Made by a program: the position numbers and the translations under genes. A DNA stretch of 13,409 nt from Enterobacterales bacterium (GTDB taxonomy: Bacteria > Pseudomonadota > Gammaproteobacteria > Enterobacterales > Enterobacteriaceae): positions 1 to 13,409 of the forward strand of contig JAATGH010000204.1 of assembly GCA_015654745.1 (NCBI GenBank), written 5' to 3'. This document shows positions 1 to 13,290 of this stretch, piece after piece. The notes beneath the pieces were generated by a model. It was not told where the DNA came from. It was given only the letters and a program-made list of their open reading frames with translations, and ran no database searches. How positions within the stretch are numbered: position 1 is the stretch's first letter; every line of letters begins with the position of its first letter.

Positions 1-1237
1 CGGGCAAGCCTTCGATCACGCCGGCCGCCTGGGCGCCGGTGGCGAGTACATCGCGGATTGTCACGTCATGTACCCTAGGGGTGGTCGCCGATATCGGCAG
101 CGGGTCGATTGCCGGCAACGCGCCTTTGACCGAGGACTCGCCATTATAAACATTGCTGATAGTGATGGGGACACGCACATCGCGCATGGTCAGATGATCC
201 GCGGTAATAGCGCCGATATCCGAGCCGCGATCGCGCGCAGACTTTATGCGAATCCCGTTTTCCGTACCCTCGAACTGCAGGTGGCTTAGATGGATATGGC
301 CAATCCCGTGCGCCGTCTCACTGCCGATAGAGACACCATGACCCTGGCGGAAAAACGAGTCCCGCACGACGATATCGGTTGACGCCGCGCCCGGTGCCGT
401 CGGAAGCCCGGATTTGATCGCCACGTTATCATCCCCGGAGGCAACGTCGAGATGGCTCAGCAGGATGTGGGACGAGGAAACGATATCGATACCATCGGTA
501 TTCGGCGAGTCGGGAGGATTACGCAGCGTGGTGCCATCAAGGCGCAGATTTTGGCTATTGCGCAGCACCACCGTCCACATCGGCGAATTTTTCAGGTGTA
601 CCGCGCCGATCAGGCCCCGATCAATATGGCTGAATTCGATTAGCCACGGCCGGGGCATCCCATTAGCCAAAGGAATGCCAGGGAAACGTTGCTTAAAGTA
701 GTCGGGATCGCCGCCGCGGACACGTTGACGAACCTTCATGGCCTCCGGCCAGAATAGCGTGTCGCCACTGCCATCAATGGTACCGAAGCCGGTAATTTGC
801 ACATTTTTGGCATCTGCGGCACGGATAAAGGCCTCCCCCGGCTGAGACGGCGAACCGATGAACGCGGCCTTAAAATCACGACCGGCGGTTCCCGTTTTCG
901 GATGGAGAGCCTTAAGCGTGGCGTCAGCGGTCAAATGCAAATTCACGCCCGATTTCAATTCGAGCGGACCGCTTAGGTACACACCGTTGCCCAGCTTGAC
1001 CATGCCGCCACCGGCGGCGGTCGCCTTATCGATTGCCTGCTGAATGGCTAGCGTATTATCGAAGGCGTTATCCGCCTTTGCGCCGAAAATTTCCGGCAAA
1101 AAGACCTGCTGCGCGTCAACCTTTATACTGGAGGACGTCGCCGCCGAAACCGGGGCCAGGGATGCGGTTGCGCATACCAGGCCCGCCATGAGAGAAATCG
1201 AAAGAGTACGTACCAACGGAATGTGACAAGCTGACAT
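1..1237 (-). CDS. Secreted glycoside hydrolase family 28 polygalacturonase (pectinase). Only the N-terminal ~412 codons are in the window; the C-terminus lies beyond position 1.
   Basis: Manual translation of the minus strand from ATG at 1237..1235 (AAGGA Shine-Dalgarno about 8 nt upstream) gives an uninterrupted frame that runs off the window edge. This explains why no long ORF is listed here in the ORF track. The product has a signal peptide (MSACHIPLVRTLSISLMAGLVCATASLA). It then carries the four canonical GH28 catalytic motifs in order: NTDGIDI, GDDNVAIKSG, QGHGVSIGSE and GIRIKS. Confidence 0.85.
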   Translation of the reverse strand, partial: MSACHIPLVRTLSISLMAGLVCATASLAPVSAATSSSIKVDAQQVFLPEIFGAKADNAFDNTLAIQQAIDKATAAGGGMVKLGNGVYLSGPLELKSGVNLHLTADATLKALHPKTGTAGRDFKAAFIGSPSQPGEAFIRAADAKNVQITGFGTIDGSGDTLFWPEAMKVRQRVRGGDPDYFKQRFPGIPLANGMPRPWLIEFSHIDRGLIGAVHLKNSPMWTVVLRNSQNLRLDGTTLRNPPDSPNTDGIDIVSSSHILLSHLDVASGDDNVAIKSGLPTAPGAASTDIVVRDSFFRQGHGVSIGSETAHGIGHIHLSHLQFEGTENGIRIKSARDRGSDIGAITADHLTMRDVRVPITISNVYNGESSVKGALPAIDPLPISATTPRVHDVTIRDVLATGAQAAGVIEGLP

Positions 1238-1316
1238 CTTACCGATCCTTGTGTTGTTTCTTGGGTGTTTTTTTATCTGGCATGGTCGGGTTGCGCCCAA
1301 ACGCAAGCGGCCCCGG

Positions 1317-2762
1317 TTAATTCAAATCAACATTCTTGCTACCGAAAAACCAGGTGGTGATGAATCCCGCCGTATAGGATACCAATAGCCCGGCAATATA
1401 GACCATCATGCCCGGATAGATGCCCTGCGCGGACGTCATCAGCGGAATAGACACGATGCCGGAGGGACCAAAGACGGTATTAAGACCGACAGGTAATCCC
1501 AGATAAGCGATGGTGCCGAGGAAAAAACCGCCGACCGCCCCTCCGATGCAGGCAGTGACAAAAGGTTTTACCCTAGGTAGGGTCACACCATAAATCAGCG
1601 GCTCACCAATGCCGAGGATGCCCGGGATGATGGCACCCTTGATTTGGGTGCGTAGCATCGAACCGGCTTTTGCCCTGACAAACAACGCCATTGACGCCCC
1701 CACCTGTCCCCCACCGGCCATCGCCAGGATTGGAAACAGCGAATTAAATCCTTGGGCATCCATCAAGGCGAAATAAACCGGGACAAACCCCTGATGAATA
1801 CCAAACATGACCGCTAACAGGAACAAACCCGCCAGCACGGCGCAGCCGAAGGGGTTGCCGTTCAGGTGTAAAAACAGCCATGACATGCCTTTGTATAACG
1901 CCCCACCGGCCGGCATGATAACCACAAACGTCACCGCTCCCATGATTAACAGCGTCACAACCGAGGTCAAAATCATATCCAGGTTATCGGGCATAAACCT
2001 CCGTACCTTTCGCTCCACCCAAGCGCCCAGGATCGTGGCGATAAGTACGCCGATAATGCTGCCTCTGGGATCGATGGGCAGGCCAAAAAAGCTGCTGATG
2101 CCTGAATAGTAACCGACCTTGGCGTCCGGCACGTAGCCCAGCACAAACAGCGACGCAATGATGGCGCCATTCACCCCCGTGCCGCCAAACGCCTTTTGCG
2201 CATTATGGCCGATAAGAATACTCAAAAAAGCAAACAGGCCTTTACTGAATACTTTCATGTAGCCGATGATGCCGATCGTCCAGGCATTGGGCGACGCGAC
2301 GCCGATGACCAGGCTTTGTTCAAGCAGCGTGGCAATCCCCAGCAGCAAACCGGCGGCGATAAAACCGGGGATCAGCGGGGTAAAGATGGTGGCAAACTTG
2401 GTGAAAAAATTTTGCAGCGCGCTGGTTTGTCGCGATCTGAGCTGCTTTTTATTCTGTGCCGCAATGGCATCGAGATCCCCGGGGGCATCGGCGACGTCCG
2501 CCTCAGCGCGGCCCAATAGGGTATTCATCATATCCGCCGCGGTTTGTGCCTTACCGGGACCCAGGACGATCTGCACCTGCCGATCGCCGTTGATAACGCC
2601 CATCACGCCGGCGATGTTTTTCAGCGCCGTCTGGTCGACTCGCGCTTGATCGTTAAGCGTGAGCCGCAAGCGCGTCATGCAGTTGCCGCACAGAATAATA
2701 TTGTTGCGGCCCCCAACATGCTCGGCGATGTGTTTGATCGTTGCCTCAGTAATTTTAGCCAT
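1317..2762 (-). CDS. murP: PTS glucose-superfamily EIIBC permease, N-acetylmuramic acid-specific (MurP-like), 481 aa.
   Basis: The N-terminal EIIB domain has the phospho-cysteine motif [11 protein letters not shown] polytopic EIIC domain follows ([36 protein letters not shown]). The B-then-C order and the roughly 475-aa length fit MurP, as does the near-identical EIIB motif and the AAQNK(K/R)QL...QTS...[24 protein letters not shown] stretch that I recall from E. coli MurP. Recognition is from memory. TreB, ScrA and AscF have the same architecture but a different EIIB motif (H-C-x-TRLR). Confidence 0.6.
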
Positions 2763-3750: not shown

Positions 3751-5715
3751 TCATTTTCGCAGCGGGATATCCGGCGGTTCCTGAGCCCCCAAGGGCTCGT
3801 CAAAGCGCAGCAGTCGCCCCGCATTGCCCAATACCAGAAGGGTGCTGAGATTATGCAGTACCGCCGCGATCATCGCCCCGCCGGCGCCAAGTAGACCAAA
3901 CGCCGCCGCGGCGACGATCAGCAGCGTCCACCCCAAACCGATCAATACATTGACCTGTAGCGTATGCCGGCACCGGCGGCTAAGTCGTACACAGGTACCG
4001 AGACGGCGCAAATCGTCGCCGATCAGCACCACGTCCGCCGACGCCAGAGCGATATCGGCGCCGCCCATGGCCACACCCACAACGCCCGCTTTCAACGCCA
4101 GGGAGTCGTTGATACCGTCGCCAACCACCATCGGCCGGAAACCTTGGCGAATTTCCGCGCCAACGCAGCGTAATTTATCCTCAGGCAACGCCTGGGCAAT
4201 CACCTGGTCAATCCCCACATCGGCCGCAATACGGCTGGCGACCCGCAGTCGATCGCCGGTCAGCAACAGTTGCCGCCGGAGACCCAGTTGGCGTAGTTCG
4301 GCCAGCGCCCGCGCCGCCTCGGGGCGCACCGTATCCGCCAGCAGCAGCCAGGCGCAAAATCGTCCGTTAAGCGCCAGACCGACAATGGGTCCGTCATGAT
4401 CGGGGATCGCGGCGGTACTCATGCCCCGCTGTTCAAACAGTTCGGCCCGGCCTAGCACGACCTCGCCCAGCCCGCTGTCGGCGACGACTCCGAGCCCCTG
4501 CAGTTCAATGATATTCTCCAGCGCGGGATAGTCATGTCGAGGCACCAACGCGGCGAGCGCGCGACTGATAGGGTGGTTACTGGTCGCGCCCAGACCGGCG
4601 GCCACGCGCTGGAGCTGGTCCAGGTCTGTGCCCGGCTGTGGGCGGATCGCGTGCAGGCGCAGCGCGCCATGGGTCAGCGTGCCGGTTTTATCGATCACCA
4701 GAGAGGTGAGATCCGCCAGTTCTTCGAGAAAGGCCGCGCTGCGGATCAATATCCCGTGCCGGGCGGCAACCGCCAGCCCGGCGATGGCCGTGGCCGGCGC
4801 CGACAAGACCAGGGCGCAGGGGCAGGCGGCGACCAGAACCGCCAGCATGGCCTGGGCATTGTTGGTAATAAACCAGGTCGTCGCGGCAATCATCAGCACC
4901 AGTATCAGATACCGTCCGGCATATCGCTCCAATAGCCGGACAATGGGCGGCTTGGCATGTTCGGCTTGCTGCATCAGGGCAATCACCTTGCCCAGCGTCG
5001 ACCCTTCGCCGATGCGGGTTACTTCAATACGCAGCAGCCCGTCGAGATTGATTGACCCGCCATAAACCTCCTGACCTGCGCATACATCCAGAGGCAACGA
5101 TTCGCCGGTGATCGGCGCAGTATCCAGACTACCCTGCCCCTCCAGCACCCGACCGTCGGCCGGCACCCGATCGCCGGCGCGCACTTCCACCCAATCACCG
5201 GCAACCAGTAAGGCATTATCGATTTCGCAAATATGGCCCTCGGCGTCAATGCGTCTGGCCTGGCTGCGGGTCAGTTGGCCCAGTGCCTCGATGGCCTCTT
5301 GCGAACCGATAACGCTACGCTCCTCCAGCACATGGCCGAAGATCATAATAATGGGCAGCAGCGCGGTGGTTAGCAGATCACCGCTGGCCCAGGCACAGAG
5401 CATGGCCAAGGCAATCAGCTGATCGGTAATACCGTGCAGGCTGGGATGTCGCAGGCTATGCCAGGCGGAGCGGAACACCGGCAGCGCCACCAGCAGCGCG
5501 GCGCTGCCCAGCAGTAATTGGCCTACGCCCTGCTGCTCGGGAGCGTACCCGCGCCACAGCAACCCGAGGATCAGCAGCCCCGAGGCAATCATGGCCAGGC
5601 TAAGCTGGCGTGCCACGCTGAGCCGTTCCGCCCGGGTCAGCATCGTCGCGGTGAGATGGGTATGATGATGCCCATGGCCGTCGCGGGAGGAAGAAGACGT
5701 AGCTGACCTGCTCAT
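3751..5715 (-). CDS. P1B-type heavy-metal translocating P-type ATPase, 654 aa. It has a His-rich N-terminal tail and no HMA (CxxC) domain.
   Basis: Phosphorylation motif DKTGTLT. Hinge motif GDGINDSLALKAG. Actuator-domain TGES. Transmembrane CPC motif in the context ACPCALVLSAP. HP dipeptide (SNHPIS). Eight predicted TM helices. N-terminus MSRSATSSSSRDGHGHHHTH. The start ATG at 5715..5713 overlaps the upstream gene's TGA (ATGA overlap). Confidence 0.9.
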   Translation of the reverse strand: MSRSATSSSSRDGHGHHHTHLTATMLTRAERLSVARQLSLAMIASGLLILGLLWRGYAPEQQGVGQLLLGSAALLVALPVFRSAWHSLRHPSLHGITDQLIALAMLCAWASGDLLTTALLPIIMIFGHVLEERSVIGSQEAIEALGQLTRSQARRIDAEGHICEIDNALLVAGDWVEVRAGDRVPADGRVLEGQGSLDTAPITGESLPLDVCAGQEVYGGSINLDGLLRIEVTRIGEGSTLGKVIALMQQAEHAKPPIVRLLERYAGRYLILVLMIAATTWFITNNAQAMLAVLVAACPCALVLSAPATAIAGLAVAARHGILIRSAAFLEELADLTSLVIDKTGTLTHGALRLHAIRPQPGTDLDQLQRVAAGLGATSNHPISRALAALVPRHDYPALENIIELQGLGVVADSGLGEVVLGRAELFEQRGMSTAAIPDHDGPIVGLALNGRFCAWLLLADTVRPEAARALAELRQLGLRRQLLLTGDRLRVASRIAADVGIDQVIAQALPEDKLRCVGAEIRQGFRPMVVGDGINDSLALKAGVVGVAMGGADIALASADVVLIGDDLRRLGTCVRLSRRCRHTLQVNVLIGLGWTLLIVAAAAFGLLGAGGAMIAAVLHNLSTLLVLGNAGRLLRFDEPLGAQEPPDIPLRK

Positions 5716-6776
5716 TTTTTGGTAGGCTCCCGAGGCTCAGCGCCCTGCAAAATCAGTTGGGCATCGTCGCCCGGATTGATAACGGTGACCGAACCGGCCT
5801 TGGCGAAAAGAGTCGCCACCCTGGCGCGATAAAGACGCCAAAGCATTCCCGGGTCGTTTCCACTTCGCTGCGTCTGCGCCAAGTTACTGATATCCGCAGT
5901 CTGCGCTTGAGCACGGGCCATACGTTCACTGGCGCCGGCGTAGGCAACCTGCAGCGTGCGATCGGCGTTTTGGGCCGCGGCCTGGGTCTGCCGCGCCGCA
6001 TCGTTTTGCGCCATGGCGATAGCCTGTTCAGCCCGTTGGCTGGCGGTCAGCACGGCGTTAAAGGCATCCACCGCTTCATTTGGCAACGATGACTGTACGT
6101 CTACCCGTTCTATTTCAATGCCCAGCCCGCCGCCGGCGGTGGCCAACGCATCAAGGCTGCGGTTTATCGCCTGTTGCAAATCGCCGCGCAGCCGCTCACG
6201 GCGCTGGGCCGCGCCGCTGTCACCGCTTACCAGTTCCGGCCGGGCAACCAGGATCGTGTCAAGATCGCGCGAGGCGCAGACCATTACCGCCGCGCGTTCC
6301 ACCAACCGGTTTAGCGCGGGTTCAACATGACTGTCCTCCAGCACCCAGGCATAGGGGTCGGTGATGCGGTAAAAGACGCGGACATCCAGCTGCGCCACGC
6401 CCGCGTCGCCGGTGAGCAAATAACCGGATCCGGCGAGTGCGTCGCCGCTCATGCTGATGTCATAGCGGATCTCGCGCGCTTGGTCCGACCGTAGCAGCGC
6501 TTCCACCCGATGTTCGATAACCCTTCCCGGCGAAGGAAGTATCACTACCTGTTCAAACGGCCGTGGCCACGCCCAAAGCAACCCGGCATGTTCAATACGT
6601 TGCATTGCCCCGAAACGCAGAACCACCGCCTGACTGTCGGGATTGATTTGGCGCACATTGGATATCAGCCAGCCGCACGCGGCCAGCAGCGTCAGCGCGT
6701 ACAGCGCCAGAAACACCAGCCGGCCCGTCTGGATCCAGGGTCCCTGTGGATTCGGCCCTCTCTCCGGCCGGTTCAC
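5712..6776 (-). CDS. SPFH/Band-7 (HflK/HflC-like) membrane protein, 354 aa, with a GTG start.
   Basis: N-terminal TM anchor (LVFLALYALTLLAACGWLI), then an SPFH core (AVVLRFGAMQRIEHAGLLWAWPRPFEQV ... DVRVFYRITDPYAWV) and an Ala/Gln-rich coiled C-terminus. The GTG start at 6776..6774 overlaps the upstream stop (GTGA). A GAGGGA Shine-Dalgarno sits 8 nt upstream. Confidence 0.75.
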   Translation of the reverse strand: MNRPERGPNPQGPWIQTGRLVFLALYALTLLAACGWLISNVRQINPDSQAVVLRFGAMQRIEHAGLLWAWPRPFEQVVILPSPGRVIEHRVEALLRSDQAREIRYDISMSGDALAGSGYLLTGDAGVAQLDVRVFYRITDPYAWVLEDSHVEPALNRLVERAAVMVCASRDLDTILVARPELVSGDSGAAQRRERLRGDLQQAINRSLDALATAGGGLGIEIERVDVQSSLPNEAVDAFNAVLTASQRAEQAIAMAQNDAARQTQAAAQNADRTLQVAYAGASERMARAQAQTADISNLAQTQRSGNDPGMLWRLYRARVATLFAKAGSVTVINPGDDAQLILQGAEPREPTKK

Positions 6777-8017
6777 GGATGCGATCCCTCGGCGGGGGCA
6801 TCGGATGCGGCCCCCGCTGCGGCGGCCGGCGGCCGGTGTCCTGTGGGTGGCGCCGGCTGCGGCGCGGAGGGGGCTATCGGTTGCACTGCGCCACTGGTGA
6901 TGGGTAAGCGCGGCGGGCCGTCAACCAGCACGCGAAACGGCGCGGCGTCGGTACGCAAAACCAGACGGGTAGCGGGAGTAATCAAGGTGCCCAGGGTATC
7001 CAGAGAGCGCAGCAGGTTATATAACTCTGGCGAGCTGGCGTAGGCTTTGCCATAGATATCCGCTGACTCGACCTGCGATCGTGCTTCGATGGCGGCGGCC
7101 TTTACCGTAGCATCGGCTTGTATGATGCGGGCGTCTCGTTCCGCGCCCGAGCGGATTTCCGCCGCCTTGCGCTTCCCTTCCGCCGTGCGTTCGGTGGCGA
7201 TGGTCTCGCGTTCGGCGCGCATGCGATCGACCGTGGCGCCCAGGGTCACCGCCGGCAACGTCAGGCGTTCGATGCCCACGCTGATTAACCGTATTCCGTA
7301 ACTGTCTCGTAGGGGCTGCTCAATCTGCGCGCGTAGGCGTTGTTAAACCTGCGCAAGCTGTACCCGGGCGGGATCGGTGTTCACCAGTCGGTCCAACGCA
7401 AAACCGCTGGTCGTGGTTTCCAGCGCCGATCCGACAAAAGTGCGGATTTGCCGGGCCGCTTCATCCGGCTGATTTTGTACCGCGCGCATAAATCGTTCCA
7501 CATGCCCCGGATCGGCCTGTACCTGCCAAACCGCGTAAGCCTGGATGATAATGCGCAGACCATCGCGGGTGCCAACGTCCTGCAGGCCGCTGGACGTCGT
7601 GCGTAGTCGCAAATCAACCGGGATGGCGGTCTCGAAGGGCATCGGCCAGCGCCAGGCGATGCCCGGCTTAAGCAGCACCCGCACGGGATTACCAAAGCGG
7701 GTGATAACCGTGGCCTCCCCCGAACGAACCTGCACCAGACTGGCGGCGGCGGCAATCACCATGACCAGCGCGACGGCCAGTCCCACGCGCCGCCGCCGCG
7801 ATGCGGGAGTGAGCATTGCGTCATGGTCATGGTCATGGTCATGGTCATGGTCATGGTCATGGTCATGGTCATGGTCATGGTCATGGTCATGGAAGGAATG
7901 GTGCCCTCCATGATCTCCGTGTTCACCATCGTGTTCCGGTGGCTGACCGGAACGGGAGGATATCTGACTCAAAGAAGGTCTCCGGCATCGATTACTGGTT
8001 ATCAATAGACTGGCCAT
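6773..8017 (-). pseudogene. HflK/HflC-like SPFH gene encoding an N-terminal His/Asp-rich tail that includes (HD)12. It is interrupted by a single in-frame TAA at 7345..7343. The ORF track splits it into a 224-aa and a 168-aa ORF.
   Basis: The two track ORFs (7343..8017 and 6773..7279) are in the same frame, separated by exactly 21 sense codons after the TAA. My translation reads ...ARVQLAQV*QRLRAQIEQPLRDSYGIRLISVGIERLTLPAV.... The upstream part has a TM segment plus the SPFH N-terminus (ATVITRFGNPVRVLLKPGIAWRWPMPFE). The downstream part is a typical HflC C-terminal half (VDRMRAERE...AIEARSQVESADIYGKAYASSPELYNLLRSLDTLGTLI). A read-through product would be about 414 aa. This could be a nonsense mutation, a sequencing error or read-through, and I cannot distinguish these from sequence alone. 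Confidence 0.6.
7821..7892. repeat. Perfect hexanucleotide tandem repeat (TCATGG)x12. On the minus strand it reads CATGAC, encoding (His-Asp)12.
   Basis: Seen directly: 72 bp of uninterrupted TCATGG. The flanking minus-strand codons are degenerate copies (gaa cac gat ggt gaa cac gga gat cat gga ggg cac cat = EHDGEHGDHGGHH). It lies inside the 5' part of the interrupted SPFH gene. The plus-strand ORFs reading SWSW..., HGHG... and VMVM... are frame shadows of this tract. Confidence 0.95.
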
Positions 8018-10019
8018 TTGGCGCGTCCGGTCGCTGCGGCGGCGGCGGTCCTAACGGCTGCTTTGCCTGGGGTTTGCCCACATCTGGACCCGCCGCGCCG
8101 GCATCGATCGGCGCGCTGAAATTTCTCAAATCAAGGGTGGGCGACGCGCCCGCGCTGATACGATGATCAAGCAGCAACATGGGCGTATTGGCCAGCGCCT
8201 GGCTAAGACGGCTGAAATAGGTCTCACTAAGAAAGGCTTGTCCGGCAGTTCGCCATGCCTGGCGTTGTGCGGTGAAACGCAGCTCCGCCGCGCGGGCGCC
8301 GGCGATATTCTCATGCGCACCCGCATCGGCCCGATCGGCGCGCATGCCGGCATCGAGCCGGGCGGCGCTGAGCAGCGCTGACGCATTGCCACCTTCGCGC
8401 GCAACCAGCGCCTGCGCCGCGATCTGCGCCGCCTGCACCCCATGGTAAGCATTGGCGGCTCCTGCCGGGGGATGGATAGCCTCAATGACGATGGCCAACA
8501 TTTCCACCCCGCTATTTAGGGCATCCAGCCGGTCTTGCACCTGACGGTGAATATTGTCGGCCAGACCCGCACGCTGGCTGCCCAACACGCCATCGAGCGT
8601 CAAAGACGCAAACTCGCGCACCAATATCTGATTGGCGGTGCTGCGGATTAACGAAGGAATATCGGCGCTGTTGTAGGCGGATGCCAGCGCCGCCGTATCG
8701 GTTAAACCGACGCGATAGATAAAACGCACATCCATATCGACGATCTGAAAGCTTTGCGCATTACCCATGTCGCTGGCAATAACCTGTGATTTCTCATTGC
8801 CGTGAACGCCATCCCACAGCCGGTTGGCGCTCTGTGGCGCGTCGCCTTCCGCCGCCACCGGCTCCTGATGCGCTTCCCCTGCCGCCACCAGCGTGGTCAG
8901 TTCATGCACTTCGCCATTTTCCACTGGCAATACGCGGCCGAACGGCCAGGGTAAACCCACATGCAGACCGGGAACCCATACCGCCGCGGGCTTGCCGAAA
9001 CGTTCATAAATACCGCGGCCGTTAACGGCGACTTCGCTAACGCCCGTCAGCATCCAGGCCACCAGCATCAATAGGATCAGCACCGGCGCAAACGCCCGCC
9101 GCATAAACGAAAAGGCCCAGACCTGGCGAAGATCGATACCAAAACGCTGCTTAATGTCCTCTTGTAGCGACGCCATAGATTGCGGCGGCCAACGCAGTTG
9201 GCCGGCGATAAAACTTGCGCCGATAAGCCGCGGCTCCTGACCAGGCCGTTGGGGATAAAAGAGGGAAAACAGCGCCCTGCCGGCGATTTCCAGCGCCACC
9301 AGCGCCGGTAATAGGCCGGTGAACATGGCCAGGTATGCCGGCCAGGGCAACGACGCGTCGGAAAACCATAAACAAAGCGCACACAACAGCGCCACGGCGA
9401 TCGCCACCCGGAGAAAGGGACCCAGGACCGCGGCCTCCGGCCACTCGGCTTCGGTGAGGGAGGCGAGGTAGCGCTCGAACAGCACTAAGGCAACGGCGGA
9501 CAAGAGCAGCAGGCCGGCGCCGACGTTAATCATCCTGCCGGGACCGGCGCTGGGTATGGCCAACCGCCATCCCAGAAAGACCATCAGCAACGCCAGCAGC
9601 GACAGCCCGATGATCCACAGCGCATCGGTGCCGACGCGCTGCCCATATTTTGCCAGGCGGTCAAGTCCGGCGCTCAGCCAGGTCAGTTTGGCCATACTGT
9701 CGACTACTGGGCCATCGGCGCCGCCCGCCGATGGCGCTGCCATAGACAGCAACGCGGCCGCCCGCCAGCGGGTCACGCCCCAGGCGGACTGAAACATCGC
9801 GATCAGCACCAGCAATACCGCGCTGATATTGCACAGGACCGGCAACCCTATTGAATCGGCGGCGTAAACATCAAACACCAGCGCGATGACGATCAACAGA
9901 CCACAAAGATTGCCCAACCCGAGCAGTAGCCAATACAGCCGCCGCGCCTGCCATTCAGCCTGCAGAAAACGCGGGAGCCGTGCCGGGCTCGCCTGCTCAT
10001 GCTCTGAATTATCGTCCAT
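7992..10019 (-). CDS. Fusion protein of about 675 aa. An N-terminal polytopic membrane domain of about 300 aa (roughly 6 TM, family not recognised) is followed by an SPFH/Band-7 domain and an Ala/Pro-rich C-terminal tail.
   Basis: SPFH core: SEVAVNGRGIYERFGKPAAVWVPGLHVGLPWPFGRV ... FQIVDMDVRFIYRV. The C-terminus is HflK-like and Ala-rich, ending in PPPPQRPDAPNGQ. I prefer the start ATG at 10019..10017, which has GGAG 5 nt upstream. The ORF-track ATG at 10079 has no SD. The 3' end overlaps the next SPFH gene's start by 26 nt. Confidence 0.65.
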   Translation of the reverse strand: MDDNSEHEQASPARLPRFLQAEWQARRLYWLLLGLGNLCGLLIVIALVFDVYAADSIGLPVLCNISAVLLVLIAMFQSAWGVTRWRAAALLSMAAPSAGGADGPVVDSMAKLTWLSAGLDRLAKYGQRVGTDALWIIGLSLLALLMVFLGWRLAIPSAGPGRMINVGAGLLLLSAVALVLFERYLASLTEAEWPEAAVLGPFLRVAIAVALLCALCLWFSDASLPWPAYLAMFTGLLPALVALEIAGRALFSLFYPQRPGQEPRLIGASFIAGQLRWPPQSMASLQEDIKQRFGIDLRQVWAFSFMRRAFAPVLILLMLVAWMLTGVSEVAVNGRGIYERFGKPAAVWVPGLHVGLPWPFGRVLPVENGEVHELTTLVAAGEAHQEPVAAEGDAPQSANRLWDGVHGNEKSQVIASDMGNAQSFQIVDMDVRFIYRVGLTDTAALASAYNSADIPSLIRSTANQILVREFASLTLDGVLGSQRAGLADNIHRQVQDRLDALNSGVEMLAIVIEAIHPPAGAANAYHGVQAAQIAAQALVAREGGNASALLSAARLDAGMRADRADAGAHENIAGARAAELRFTAQRQAWRTAGQAFLSETYFSRLSQALANTPMLLLDHRISAGASPTLDLRNFSAPIDAGAAGPDVGKPQAKQPLGPPPPQRPDAPNGQSIDNQ

Positions 10020-10079
10020 GATCGCTCCGAAGCATGCCGGGGCGACATCCGCAACTTGCCATCGTTTGGCCAACGCCAT

Positions 10080-10236
10080 GAATACAGTGAACGCTGTGCA
10101 TTATAGGAGATCGTCGTGAGTATTTAGCGTAACTTTATAACATCACTAAATACCCGAAAACAGCTTTATTACCAAAACTATGTAACCATACATATAGTTA
10201 GGAACATGCTAGGTTTATGCCCGCCACGCATAAACG
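10080..10236 (-). promoter_or_regulatory. AT-rich 157-bp intergenic region upstream of the SPFH-SPFH-SPFH-ATPase cluster. Probable promoter region.
   Basis: A perfect TATAAT on the minus strand (plus coordinates 10105..10100) sits 20 nt before the ORF-track ATG at 10079 and about 80 nt before the SD-supported ATG at 10019. No good -35 or TG extension. AT-rich in an otherwise GC-rich locus. Confidence 0.3.
10214..10234. other. Perfect inverted repeat TTTATGC-N7-GCATAAA, 3 nt downstream of the ABC ATPase stop codon.
   Basis: Seen directly. The stem is 7 bp and AT-rich, and no U-tract follows on the minus-strand transcript. It is therefore not a canonical intrinsic terminator. It could be a weak hairpin or a protein-binding palindrome. 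Confidence 0.3.
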
Positions 10237-11016
10237 TTAAAGCATATGCCGCCGGGCTTCGACGCGCACCAGGTGCAGGATTTGCTGCTTGATCACAGTG
10301 TAGCCCGGCGCCTGCGCCAGGGTTTCGATATTCCGGTCCCGGCCGAAGGGTAAAATCACTTCATCGACTATTTTGCCCGGCCGCGCGGACATCACCAAAA
10401 TCCGATCGGCGAGAAACAGCGCCTCTTCCACATCGTGGGTAACAAATAAAATCGTCGTGCCGGTCTGCCGCCAGGCATCCCGCAACAGTTCCTGCATCAT
10501 CATTCGTGTTTGCGCGTCCAGCGCCCCAAAGGGTTCATCCATTAACAGCACCTCCGGGTCCGGCAGCCAGGCCCGAGCCAGGGCCACCCGCTGTTTCATC
10601 CCGCCGGACAGTTGCCATGGCGCATGCTGGCCAAAGCCGTCCAAACCCACCCGTGTGAGCCAATCGCCAGCCTGGGCATTGGCCTCGGCTTTCTTTAACC
10701 CGGCCATGCGCGGGCCAAAGGAGATATTGTCCAATACCGATAGCCAGGGAAAAAGATTGGGCTGCTGGAACACCATGCCACGACTCGGATGCGGGCCGCG
10801 CACCGGACGACCGGCGCAAAGGATCCGCCCCTGCTGCGCAAGGGTAAAACCGGCAATCAGGTTCAGTATGGTGGACTTACCGCAGCCGGAAGGGCCGAGC
10901 AGCACCACGAATTCACCTTGGTCCAAGGCGAGCGACACATCGTCCAGTACCCTCAGCGCCTGGGGTTGCCCGGAGAATGTCAGCGTGACGTGCTCCAGGG
11001 TAATATGCTGCGTCAT
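10237..11016 (-). CDS. ABC transporter ATP-binding protein of the NitT/TauT family (TauB/SsuB-like), about 260 aa.
   Basis: Walker A LLGPSGCGKST. Q-loop. ABC signature LSGGMKQRVALARA. Walker B LLMDEPFGALD. H-loop VTHD. The ORF-track 398-aa version is over-extended into the permease gene. The real start is the ATG at 11016..11014, which has GGAAGGA 4-5 nt upstream and forms an ATGA overlap with the permease stop. Confidence 0.85.
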   Translation of the reverse strand: MTQHITLEHVTLTFSGQPQALRVLDDVSLALDQGEFVVLLGPSGCGKSTILNLIAGFTLAQQGRILCAGRPVRGPHPSRGMVFQQPNLFPWLSVLDNISFGPRMAGLKKAEANAQAGDWLTRVGLDGFGQHAPWQLSGGMKQRVALARAWLPDPEVLLMDEPFGALDAQTRMMMQELLRDAWRQTGTTILFVTHDVEEALFLADRILVMSARPGKIVDEVILPFGRDRNIETLAQAPGYTVIKQQILHLVRVEARRHML

Positions 11017-11786
11017 GCGTCCTTCCCTGCCCAGGGTACTAGCCATTTTTGCAATCCCACAATCAGTAAATCCAGTAAATAGCCAATGGCGCCCAGCAGC
11101 AGGATGCCAATCATCACGATATCGGTGCGCAAATAGGCACTGGCGTTGATCACCATCCATCCTAAGCCCGAGGTAGCCGCCACCAGTTCGGCGGCAATCA
11201 GCGAGGTCCAACCGACGCCTATGGACAGCCGCACGCTGGTAAACAGCTCGGGCAACGTATCCGGCAGCACCACGCGCCAAAAAATCTGCCGACGGGAGGC
11301 GCCAAGGGTCTGCGCCACACGGATCCGGGCGCCCCCGATTCGCTCCACCGCGGCGGCGGCGCCCACCACTACGCTTAGGAACGTGGCGATAAAAATCAGG
11401 AAAAATTTCGACGACTCGCCGATACCCAGCCATACCACCGCTAATGGAATCAGGGCGATTTTAGGTAACGGCCGCAAAAACTGGACAAAGGGATTGAGCG
11501 CGGCGGCGATCGGCTGCGACAATCCCATCAGCAGGCCCAGGGGAATGCCGCAGGCGATGGCCACGGTAAAGGCGCTGAGCGCGCGTGCCAGGCTAATGGC
11601 AATATGCTGCCATAACGGTACCTGACGGTAGCCGTCATGGAGCAGCTCAACGGTGGTTTCAGCAATATCGGAGAGCGGAGGCAGCAATAAGGGGTCGACC
11701 CAATGGCGTACTCCGGCGACTTGCCACAGCAGAAAAAACAGCGTCACCGAGACGACGCTGATAGCAACATGATTAACCGCTTTCAT
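11013..11786 (-). CDS. ABC transporter permease of the TauC/SsuC family (binding-protein-dependent inner-membrane component), 257 aa.
   Basis: Six predicted TM helices and an EAA-like loop region (ALSAFTVAIACGIPLGLLMG...). It lies 8 nt downstream of the SBP gene and is ATGA-coupled to the ATPase gene. Confidence 0.8.
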   Translation of the reverse strand: MKAVNHVAISVVSVTLFFLLWQVAGVRHWVDPLLLPPLSDIAETTVELLHDGYRQVPLWQHIAISLARALSAFTVAIACGIPLGLLMGLSQPIAAALNPFVQFLRPLPKIALIPLAVVWLGIGESSKFFLIFIATFLSVVVGAAAAVERIGGARIRVAQTLGASRRQIFWRVVLPDTLPELFTSVRLSIGVGWTSLIAAELVAATSGLGWMVINASAYLRTDIVMIGILLLGAIGYLLDLLIVGLQKWLVPWAGKDA

Positions 11787-11794
11787 AAGTGTGG

Positions 11795-12805
11795 TTATTT
11801 ACCCGCGGCCTGGCGAATAAAACTCGAATCGATGGCGTCTTTCCAGGTGGTGGGGATATCGCGTTTACGCACATCACCGGTACTTTCCAGAAAATGGGCG
11901 GTTTTATCCACCGCTTGGCCAATGCCGCTGCGATCGGTATCGGTGCCGTCGCCCAGCCAGGCGGCGGTGCCCTGCTCGGCAATGGACGGATATTCCAGAC
12001 CCGCCAACGTATTGGTGGCGGTGCTTACCGGCGCGCCAACCTCCTTGGCGACGATAGCGGCGGCAGCCTCGGGATTGCGACGGAACTCATCGACTTTTTG
12101 CTGATGCACTTTGAGGAAATTGATTACCACCTGGGGATATTGTTGGGCGAACGCTTTGCGCACCACATAGTTGTTATAAATAAGATAACCATCTTTCTGC
12201 AGATCTTTGGTGGCAAATACCTGATGGCCGCCTGAGGCCTCCAGCTCTTGGGCGAAGGGCGCCCAAACATAACCGGCGTCGATATCGCCGCGTTTCCAGG
12301 CCGCCACCATTTCCGCCGGGCGCAGAGGGATCAGGGTGATTTTGCTGCGATCAAGCTTATGTACGGCGATCGCCGCTTCCAGCGCATACTGGGACGTGGA
12401 ATTAGGTGGATAACCTACCCGTTTGCCTTCTATATCCTGCAGCCGGTTGATACCCTGCTTGCCAATCAAACGTTCATAGGTGGCGATGACGCCGGACACG
12501 CCGACGATTTCCACCGGCAGCTTACGCACGATGCCGGCGGTGGCCGGGCTGGAGCCGAAGTTGGCAATATCGATGGCATCACTGGCGAAAAAATTCAGCG
12601 CATCGGCGCCCGAGGCGAACTGTACCCATTTAACGTGGGTGCCCAGCGCCTTTTCCAGCGAACCGTCCTTTTTGGCCAGCAGTATCACCTGCGAACCACC
12701 GCTATAGGCAATGCGCACTTCATCCGGCAGCGCCGCAGCGTGAGCCTGGGCCAAAGTGACCAATACACCGGCGGCGCCGAGTATGGCCGTCATTATTTTA
12801 CGCAT
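11795..12805 (-). CDS. Periplasmic substrate-binding protein of the taurine/aliphatic-sulfonate/nitrate (NMT1/TauA/SsuA) family, 336 aa.
   Basis: Sec signal peptide MRKIMTAILGAAGVLVTLAQAHA. AGGGGA Shine-Dalgarno 6 nt before the ATG at 12805. Motifs resemble E. coli TauA as I recall it: NFGSSP...PVEIV, AAWKRGDIDAGYVWAP, YVVRKAFAQQYPQVV. No tauD/ssuD-type oxygenase lies in the window, so the substrate is unassigned. Confidence 0.7.
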   Translation of the reverse strand: MRKIMTAILGAAGVLVTLAQAHAAALPDEVRIAYSGGSQVILLAKKDGSLEKALGTHVKWVQFASGADALNFFASDAIDIANFGSSPATAGIVRKLPVEIVGVSGVIATYERLIGKQGINRLQDIEGKRVGYPPNSTSQYALEAAIAVHKLDRSKITLIPLRPAEMVAAWKRGDIDAGYVWAPFAQELEASGGHQVFATKDLQKDGYLIYNNYVVRKAFAQQYPQVVINFLKVHQQKVDEFRRNPEAAAAIVAKEVGAPVSTATNTLAGLEYPSIAEQGTAAWLGDGTDTDRSGIGQAVDKTAHFLESTGDVRKRDIPTTWKDAIDSSFIRQAAGK

Positions 12806-13290
12806 TTATATCCCCTATAAAAAGATAACACATCGTTTTACCCTAAGGTATATTCTGGCGCACAGTATAAAGGCGCCGCGGTTCATTTATTTAGCTAATA
12901 TCTGGATGTTTATAGTGAATAATCGGCAATAAGGTTGAGTGATATAATAAATCCTGGTTTTTTGATTCTATATTGCGCAAAAAAAAATACGCACTGGGCA
13001 ACAACCCAACATCGGATTGAACATAAAAAAAGCAAGATATCAGCTAAAAACGCTCAGCCACATGAAAAATATATATTTTATTTTTATTTATTAGATATAA
13101 CAAAATAATCGAAACCATGGTCACTATATGATCACACCGCGGCATCGATTAATGTCACTTATCATAATGACTTAAAAAATAGAGCAAAAATCAACTATCG
13201 TTATGCGCTATTTTCATTTTAAGTTCAAATGCCTTGTAGTGTATGGTTTTGACCAGTCCAAGGGGAATGCTTATCTCATATGAGGTTAAA
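12806..13290. promoter_or_regulatory. Divergent 485-bp AT-rich intergenic region between the TauA-like transporter operon (minus) and the M20 amidohydrolase gene (plus).
   Basis: Composition drops sharply from about 60% GC to very AT-rich, for example 13050-13110 atgaaaaatatatattttatttttatttattagatataacaaaataatcg. Contains A9 and T-runs. It must hold both divergent promoters. No ORF larger than 16 codons. No specific operator recognised. Confidence 0.4.

What the first reader, a model, noticed from the sequence alone, without database searches (positions are those of the whole stretch)
7343..7345. Single in-frame TAA splits an otherwise intact HflK/C-like gene
The 224-aa and 168-aa ORFs are in the same frame, and both halves align to contiguous parts of an SPFH protein. 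Exactly one stop codon, TAA at 7345..7343 on the minus strand, separates them. This is either a very recent nonsense mutation (pseudogenisation, as is common in host-restricted Enterobacterales such as Sodalis), a sequencing error, or a read-through site. The downstream genes are translationally coupled, so premature termination here would also have polar consequences for the SPFH3 and ATPase genes.
Basis: seen in the sequence. Interest (0 to 1): 0.6.

Follow-up and report, generated by a model that had tools for sequence, protein, structure and literature searches.

The report
Unfixed single-base stop in SPFH gene
One base change (GAA to TAA) interrupts an otherwise well-conserved membrane-scaffold gene in this metagenome contig, but an independent assembly from the same deadwood project has the intact codon in otherwise identical DNA, so this is an ordinary unfixed variant or consensus error.

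Summary
The minus-strand frame 8017..6773 has exactly one internal stop, TAA at 7345..7343. The two halves align to contiguous parts of one SPFH/Band-7 domain.

- **Ancestral codon:** all 81 orthologous loci fetched have Glu here (GAA 66, GAG 15), so the stop is a private G>T change.
- **Intact allele exists:** the window is a whole 13,409-bp NCBI contig. A Logan assembly of run SRR10968246 (beech deadwood metagenome, PRJNA603240) gives a contig covering window 5101..7849. It is identical at 2,748 of 2,749 bases. The only difference is window 7345, where it reads GAA and gives an uninterrupted ORF.
- **No relaxed selection:** dN/dS against the closest relative is 0.09 before the stop and 0.03 after it.
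- **No decay nearby:** every other gene in the window is intact.
- **No recoding:** TAA terminates four other genes in the window, three of them as TAAC.
- **No restart:** no Shine-Dalgarno-preceded start codon follows the stop.

Programmed read-through, a genuine two-gene arrangement and symbiont-style genome decay are therefore not supported. What remains is a very young, unfixed nonsense allele or an assembly or sequencing artefact. Only read mapping can separate these two.

The gene is the middle SPFH gene of an operon of three SPFH genes and a P1B-ATPase, orthologous to P. aeruginosa PA2439-PA2435 (the hmtA cluster).

The parts
7343..7345 (-). In-frame TAA (codon 225 of the ATG-8017 frame). 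It is a derived G>T change of a GAA Glu codon.
   Evidence: Searches show the stop. In one search, all 81 orthologous loci have GAA or GAG. In some searches, Logan contig L082 has GAA here and is otherwise identical over 2,749 bp.
6773..7972 (-). SPFH2, an HflC-like SPFH/Band-7 gene, given with its probable TTG start. The longest ORF start, ATG 8017, is probably fortuitous.
   Evidence: Searches give the Band_7 match. One search aligns it to full-length orthologues of 295-391 aa. One search shows that TTG and GGAG are conserved in L081.
7820..7892 (-). Perfect (CATGAC)x12.2 tandem repeat encoding the (His-Asp)n N-terminal tract of SPFH2.
   Evidence: One search finds the repeat. One search shows that L082 ends inside it at 7849.
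7992..10079 (-). SPFH1, a 695-aa HflK-like SPFH protein with a multi-pass N-terminal region. It is the first gene of the operon.
   Evidence: Synteny with PA2439 is shown.
5712..6776 (-). SPFH3, a 354-aa HflK/C-like protein. Its GTG start overlaps the SPFH2 TGA (GTGA).
   Evidence: An identical protein is found in Logan run SRR10968246.
3751..5715 (-). P1B-type heavy-metal P-type ATPase of 654 aa with a His-rich N-terminus. Its ATG overlaps the SPFH3 TGA (ATGA). It is about 76% identical to the P. aeruginosa protein encoded next to three SPFH genes (the hmtA cluster).
10127..10142 (-). Motif TGTTATAAAGTTACGC, about 48 nt upstream of the SPFH1 start. It is a candidate Zur box, conserved in the P. 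aeruginosa PA2439 promoter as TGTTATAAAGTTTCGC.
   Evidence: Zur binding to the PA2439 promoter is reported in PMC8531726. Binding was not tested here.

Best explanation
The TAA is a private, unfixed, very recent G>T nonsense substitution (Glu225 GAA to TAA). It sits in the middle SPFH (HflC-like) gene of an hmtA-type operon of three SPFH genes and a P1B-ATPase, in a free-living Sodalis/Acerihabitans-clade bacterium from decomposing beech wood.

The contig captured the nonsense allele, probably through the MEGAHIT co-assembly of 25 samples. The intact GAA allele is present in at least one sample of the same project.

In cells carrying TAA, translation would stop inside the SPFH domain. The product would keep the His/Asp tail, the transmembrane helix and about two thirds of the SPFH domain. 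It would lack the last SPFH strand and the coiled-coil and C-terminal regions that build the oligomeric cage in HflK/C. That would be a loss-of-function allele.

Termination 567 nt upstream of the SPFH3 start would also uncouple translation of SPFH3 and the ATPase.

Shown here: the base change, its derived state, the intact allele in identical flanking DNA, and the lack of relaxed selection. Inferred: that the variant is real in DNA rather than an artefact, its functional consequence, and the polarity.
For: - **One internal stop** in the frame.
- **Ancestral codon:** Glu in 81 of 81 orthologous loci, GAA 66 and GAG 15. The residue is nearly invariant in the protein alignment.
- **Same population, intact allele:** L082 from Logan SRR10968246 equals window 5101..7849 with a single mismatch, at 7345, and reads GAA. 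L083 equals window 10869..11951 with no mismatches. The two assemblies therefore sample the same population.
- **Provenance:** the window is a whole NCBI contig (13,409 bp). SRR10968246 is sample_133 of PRJNA603240. That project deposited a MEGAHIT co-assembly of 25 samples and four 'Enterobacterales bacterium' MAGs.
- **Read support (from my own knowledge, not checked here):** MEGAHIT and Logan both apply k-mer abundance filters. Each allele was therefore probably seen more than once.
- **No relaxed selection:** dN/dS against L081 is 0.09 for the N part and 0.03 for the C part, against 0.08-0.14 for neighbouring genes.
- **Position of the stop:** inside the single Band_7 domain. It maps to about residue 185 of E. 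coli HflC, before the last SPFH strand and the coiled coil.
Against: - No reads could be inspected.
- C>A / G>T is also the signature of oxidative-damage artefacts (my own knowledge). Overlapping mates from one damaged or mis-amplified fragment could give a k-mer count of 2.
- This organism appears to have low coverage. Its Logan contigs are only 1-3 kb long, and only one run yielded them. Errors survive more easily at low coverage.
- That the NCBI contig comes from the 25-sample co-assembly is inferred, not shown.
- The C-terminal fragment protein (168 aa) is on record only from NCBI, not from any Logan assembly. The TAA allele has therefore been seen in one assembly only.
Confidence: 0.5

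Rival explanations
1. Assembly or sequencing artefact. The organism's gene is intact (GAA). The T in the deposited contig comes from a library or sequencing error, such as 8-oxoG damage or a PCR error seen in both overlapping mates, or from a wrong branch choice by the assembler at low coverage.
For: - An independent assembly from the same project reads GAA, with 2,748 of 2,749 bases identical.
- The only difference in 3,832 compared bases is this one.
- The change is G>T / C>A.
- Coverage appears low, since the Logan contigs of this strain are 1-3 kb.
- There is no sign of relaxed selection.
- The TAA-derived 168-aa product is recorded only from NCBI.
Against: Assemblers with a minimum k-mer count of 2 and bubble popping normally discard singleton errors (my own knowledge). 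A co-assembly that chose TAA over a GAA branch supported by at least 2 reads suggests that TAA had comparable or higher depth. I could not check this.
Confidence: 0.4
2. Fixed pseudogenisation as part of genome decay in a host-restricted Sodalis-like symbiont.
For: The closest named relatives are Sodalis sp. and Acerihabitans. From my own knowledge and PMC8226273, the genus includes symbionts rich in pseudogenes.
Against: - The intact allele exists in identical flanking DNA.
- The source is a deadwood metagenome, where free-living Sodalis are described.
- All nine other genes or gene fragments in the window are intact.
- dN/dS is 0.03-0.09.
- A GH28 pectin-degrading gene and sugar PTS and ABC transporters are retained.
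Confidence: 0.05
3. Programmed stop-codon read-through or recoding, or a genuine two-gene arrangement with a restart downstream of the stop.
For: The stop is followed by C. From my own knowledge, that is a weaker fourth base for termination in E. coli. An in-frame GTG lies 22 codons downstream, at 7279.
Against: - None of 81 orthologues has a stop here.
- TAA ends four other genes in the window, three of them as TAAC.
- There is no Shine-Dalgarno sequence before GTG 7279 or the other in-frame starts.
- The stop is inside one folded domain.
- A restarted C-terminal fragment would lack the transmembrane anchor needed to reach the periplasmic side (inference from HflK/C topology, PDB 7VHP/7WI3).
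- The best 120 homologues listed are all 295-391 aa long.
Confidence: 0.03

Closest known systems
P. aeruginosa PA2438, the middle SPFH gene of the Zur-regulated PA2439-PA2435 hmtA cluster
   Same: The gene order is the same: a long HflK-like SPFH gene, then an HflC-like SPFH gene, then a third SPFH gene, then a P1B ATPase. The proteins are about 73-80% identical to Pseudomonas homologues. A near-identical TGTTATAAAGTT(A/T)CGC motif lies upstream of the first gene. The cluster is up-regulated under Zn depletion and its promoter is bound by Zur in P. aeruginosa (PMC4542158 and PMC8531726).
   Different: The window lacks the small PA2436-like gene and the DUF4946 PA2434-like gene. An AmiA-like (PF07313) gene follows the ATPase instead. 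In this contig the SPFH2 gene carries a nonsense codon. The host is a Sodalis-clade enterobacterium, not a pseudomonad.
E. coli HflC, in the HflK/C-FtsH cage (PDB 7VHP, 7WI3)
   Same: Both have an N-terminal transmembrane helix, an SPFH domain, and a coiled-coil and C-terminal region. The sequence match to HflC has E = 1.2e-15.
   Different: It scores 92.9 bits against the HflC equivalog model TIGR01932, below the 134.4 cut-off. The genomic partner is a metal ATPase rather than hfq-hflX-hflK. It also has an extra His/Asp-rich N-terminal tail.
Nonsense-mutation pseudogenes of recently host-restricted Sodalis (S. glossinidius, S. pierantonius)
   Same: A single point nonsense mutation in an otherwise intact gene of a Sodalis-clade bacterium.
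   Different: Here the mutation is not fixed, neighbouring genes are intact, selection is not relaxed, and the habitat is deadwood.

Membership tests
SPFH / Band 7 domain proteins (PF01145) | Significant match to the Band_7 profile over the whole domain | tested here: met
   With Glu restored, the match is 103.5 bits (cut-off 23.6) over profile positions 2-175 of 176. The fragments alone score 72.6 and 21.0 bits.
HflC proper (FtsH protease modulator, NCBIfam TIGR01932 equivalog) | Score at or above the curated equivalog cut-off | tested here: not met
   92.9 bits against a cut-off of 134.4 for TIGR01932, and 77 against 427 for NF008259. It is HflC-like, not HflC.
HflC proper (FtsH protease modulator) | Encoded next to hflK in the hfq-hflX-hflK-hflC context, and associated with FtsH | tested here: not met
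   The neighbours are two other SPFH genes and a P1B ATPase. Association with FtsH cannot be tested with these tools.
hmtA-type SPFHx3 + P1B-ATPase cluster (P. aeruginosa PA2439-PA2435) | Conserved gene order of three SPFH genes followed by the ATPase, with high identity to the Pseudomonas proteins | tested here: met
   P. aeruginosa locus L084 encodes SPFH 665 aa, 343 aa, SPFH 346 aa, 144 aa and ATPase 660 aa. The window ATPase is 76% identical to that ATPase.
hmtA-type SPFHx3 + P1B-ATPase cluster | Zur-dependent regulation through a Zur box in the promoter | tested here: inconclusive
   A conserved TGTTATAAAGTTACGC motif lies at 10142..10127. The window has no match within 3 mismatches to the 19-nt palindromic consensus I recalled from memory. 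Binding was not tested.
Fixed pseudogene of a degrading (host-restricted) genome | The disruptive mutation is fixed in the lineage | tested here: not met
   L082 carries GAA in otherwise identical DNA.
Fixed pseudogene of a degrading (host-restricted) genome | Relaxed purifying selection, and other disrupted genes nearby | tested here: not met
   dN/dS is 0.09 and 0.03 on the two sides of the stop. All other genes in the window are intact.
Programmed stop-codon read-through or codon reassignment | The stop codon is conserved at this site in orthologues, or TAA is not used as a terminator in this organism | tested here: not met
   None of 81 orthologues has a stop here. TAA terminates the PTS, SPFH1, ABC-ATPase and SBP genes.
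Naturally split (two-gene) SPFH arrangement | The split falls between domains and is followed by a restart codon with a ribosome-binding site, conserved in relatives | tested here: not met
   The stop is inside the Band_7 domain. The first in-frame start is GTG 7279, with no Shine-Dalgarno sequence. The homologues listed are full-length.

The most novel reading that the evidence does not exclude
The TAA allele is real and common in several deadwood samples. That would make it a natural knockout of the middle SPFH subunit, with polar effects on SPFH3 and the HmtA-like ATPase, segregating against the intact allele in a free-living Sodalis-clade population. It could serve as a natural experiment on whether the SPFH cage is needed for this metal-importer operon, or as a sign of selection to lose Zn/Cu import in that habitat.
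Probability: 0.1. Interest if true: 0.3.

Novelty: already known. Interest (0 to 1): 0.12.

Why it matters
It matters little beyond annotation hygiene. The gene should be treated as an intact HflC-like SPFH gene with a questionable or unfixed stop. It should not be counted as evidence of genome decay or of recoding.

The useful by-product concerns the operon. The hmtA-type cluster of three SPFH genes and a P1B-ATPase is known from Pseudomonas as Zur-regulated. Here it is also present, with its promoter motif, in a deadwood Sodalis-clade enterobacterium. It may have arrived there by horizontal transfer.

Tried and rejected
- **Exact-protein look-ups that found nothing.** I tried the 224-aa fragment, the ATPase, the PTS protein, the 168-aa fragment and P0121. 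Only SPFH3 and the permease led to contigs.
- **JGI metagenome scans.** Two exact-pattern scans around the codon, with N at the variable base, found nothing. I therefore have no third independent allele.
- **GTDB representative genomes.** The scan returned relatives only, at 81% nucleotide identity or less. The source genome was not among them, so no strain-level comparison was possible there.
- **Zur-box consensus from memory.** It gave no match within 3 mismatches. The candidate motif came from comparing promoters instead.
- **Degraded gene at 1..1317.** I considered this because the ORF listing shows only short ORFs there. I rejected it: the region is an intact GH28 gene that runs off the contig end.
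- **ATG 8017 as the start.** I considered it and rejected it in favour of the conserved TTG 7972.

Full report
**Observation.** On the minus strand, the frame from 8017 to 6773 translates into 415 codons. It has a single internal stop at codon 225, TAA at 7345..7343, and a terminal TGA. The ORF listing gives the two pieces as 8017..7343 (224 aa) and 7279..6773 (168 aa, GTG start), both in the same frame. The N piece matches Pfam Band_7 profile positions 2-119 of 176. The C piece matches positions 131-175. When the stop is replaced by Glu, one continuous Band_7 match covers profile 2-175 at 103.5 bits.

One refinement concerns the start. The conserved start is most likely TTG 7972, preceded by GGAG. 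The closest relative has the same TTG and GGAG and has no ATG at the position matching 8017.

**Context.** The gene is the second of four co-directional genes:
- SPFH1: 10079..7992, 695 aa, HflK-like.
- SPFH2: the split gene.
- SPFH3: 6776..5712.
- A P1B heavy-metal P-type ATPase: 5715..3751.

The same order of three SPFH genes followed by the ATPase is found in P. aeruginosa (L084). That is the PA2439-PA2435 hmtA cluster. It is reported to be induced under zinc depletion, and its promoter is bound by Zur (PMC4542158 and PMC8531726). A motif TGTTATAAAGTTACGC lies about 48 nt upstream of SPFH1, at 10142..10127. It is nearly identical to the sequence at the equivalent place in P. aeruginosa.

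SPFH2 is HflC-like but is not HflC proper. It scores 92.9 bits against the TIGR01932 cut-off of 134.4.

**Is the stop ancestral or conserved?** It is neither. A database search with the joined protein returned full-length homologues of 295-391 aa. In the alignment, the stop falls on a nearly invariant Glu. Across all 81 orthologous loci fetched, the codon is GAA in 66 and GAG in 15, with no stop anywhere. These loci come from GTDB representative genomes and one Logan contig, and cover Pseudomonas, Acerihabitans and a Sodalis-like metagenome contig. TAA is therefore a derived single G>T transversion of GAA.

**The decisive comparison.** The ATPase search showed a 100% identical protein from an NCBI contig of exactly 13,409 bp, so the window is a whole deposited contig. 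The SPFH3 protein is also recorded from a Logan assembly. The look-up returned contig L082 from run SRR10968246. L082 equals window 5101..7849 (2,749 bp) with exactly one mismatch, at window position 7345. The window has A on the plus strand (T on the coding strand). L082 has C (G on the coding strand), which gives GAA and an uninterrupted reading frame of 358 codons up to the contig end. A second Logan contig from the same run, L083, equals window 10869..11951 with no mismatch. Two independent assemblies of the same population thus differ in 1 of 3,832 bases, and that base is the nonsense base.

**Provenance.** SRR10968246 is the metagenome of sample_133 of BioProject PRJNA603240, decomposing Fagus sylvatica deadwood. 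That project made a combined MEGAHIT assembly of 25 samples and deposited 58 MAGs, including four labelled 'Enterobacterales bacterium'. Free-living, deadwood-inhabiting Sodalis are described from the same forest (PMC8226273). It is plausible, but not shown, that the window is a contig of that co-assembly. This would explain how a pooled assembly and a single-run assembly picked different alleles.

**No sign of decay.**
- dN/dS against the closest relative (L081, 81% nucleotide identity) is 0.09 upstream and 0.03 downstream of the stop. This is as low as or lower than SPFH3 (0.08), the ATPase (0.08) and the PTS gene (0.14).
- Every other gene in the window is intact. These are a GH28 gene cut by the contig end, PTS EIIBC, an AmiA-like gene, the ATPase, SPFH3, SPFH1, and an ABC transporter trio.

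**No sign of recoding or a split gene.** TAA ends four other genes in the window, three of them in the same TAAC context. The first in-frame start after the stop is GTG 7279, 22 codons downstream, with no Shine-Dalgarno sequence. A restarted C-terminal piece would lack the transmembrane anchor.

**Consequence if the allele is real.** Alignment to E. coli HflC (PDB 7VHP/7WI3) places the stop near HflC residue 185. That is before the last SPFH strand and the coiled-coil and C-terminal regions. From published HflK/C structures (my own knowledge), those regions form the cage. The truncated product would therefore very probably be non-functional. Termination 567 nt before the SPFH3 start would break the coupling to SPFH3 and the ATPase. 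These steps are inferred.

**Verdict.** The stop is either a very young, unfixed nonsense allele caught by one assembly (about 0.5) or a sequencing or assembly artefact (about 0.4). The tools here cannot separate the two, because no reads can be inspected. Fixed symbiont-type pseudogenisation (about 0.05) and read-through or a true two-gene arrangement (about 0.03) are not supported. The finding is ordinary. Its main practical consequence is that this gene should not be counted as a pseudogene or a recoding site without read-level confirmation.

Noticed in passing
window 7820..7892 (minus-strand coding): A perfect hexanucleotide repeat, (CATGAC)x12.2, encodes a (His-Asp)n tract at the N-terminus of SPFH2. 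Orthologues have His-rich tails of very variable length. The k=31 Logan contig L082 ends inside the repeat, so the copy number may be uncertain or variable. Changes would be in-frame.
   Followed up: partly
window 10127..10142 (minus strand), upstream of SPFH1: The motif TGTTATAAAGTTACGC lies about 48 nt upstream of the SPFH1 start. P. aeruginosa has TGTTATAAAGTTTCGC at the equivalent place before PA2439, and other Pseudomonas loci have TGTTATAwsGTAAC. This is a candidate Zur box, which suggests zinc-responsive regulation is conserved across orders.
   Followed up: partly
window 3751..10079 against the flanks: The SPFHx3-ATPase operon is 61-65% GC and the flanking genes are 54-58% GC. Its proteins are 73-80% identical to Pseudomonas proteins, which is unusually high for Enterobacterales against Pseudomonadales. 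This suggests horizontal transfer of the cluster.
   Followed up: no
L037 (Acerihabitans sp. KWT182) about 9922..12427: The orthologous P-type ATPase appears as two overlapping ORFs in different frames (9922..11685 and 11468..12427). This may be a frameshift or pseudogene in that complete genome.
   Followed up: no
window 7972 against 8017: The longest-ORF ATG at 8017 overlaps the end of SPFH1 by 26 nt and is not conserved. The conserved start is TTG 7972, with GGAG upstream and a 19-nt spacer after the SPFH1 stop, as in L081.
   Followed up: yes
window 10237..11433: The first ~140 codons of the 398-aa ABC-ATPase ORF overlap the permease gene (11013..11786), and the Pfam ABC_tran match starts only at residue 163. 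The real start is probably the internal ATG (MTQHITLEHV...). The long ORF is an artefact of taking the first start codon.
   Followed up: partly
window 2..1321 (minus) and 12806..13240: A GH28 polygalacturonase-like gene runs off the contig start, which fits a plant or deadwood habitat. A 35% GC intergenic stretch precedes a gene fragment at the other contig end.
   Followed up: partly
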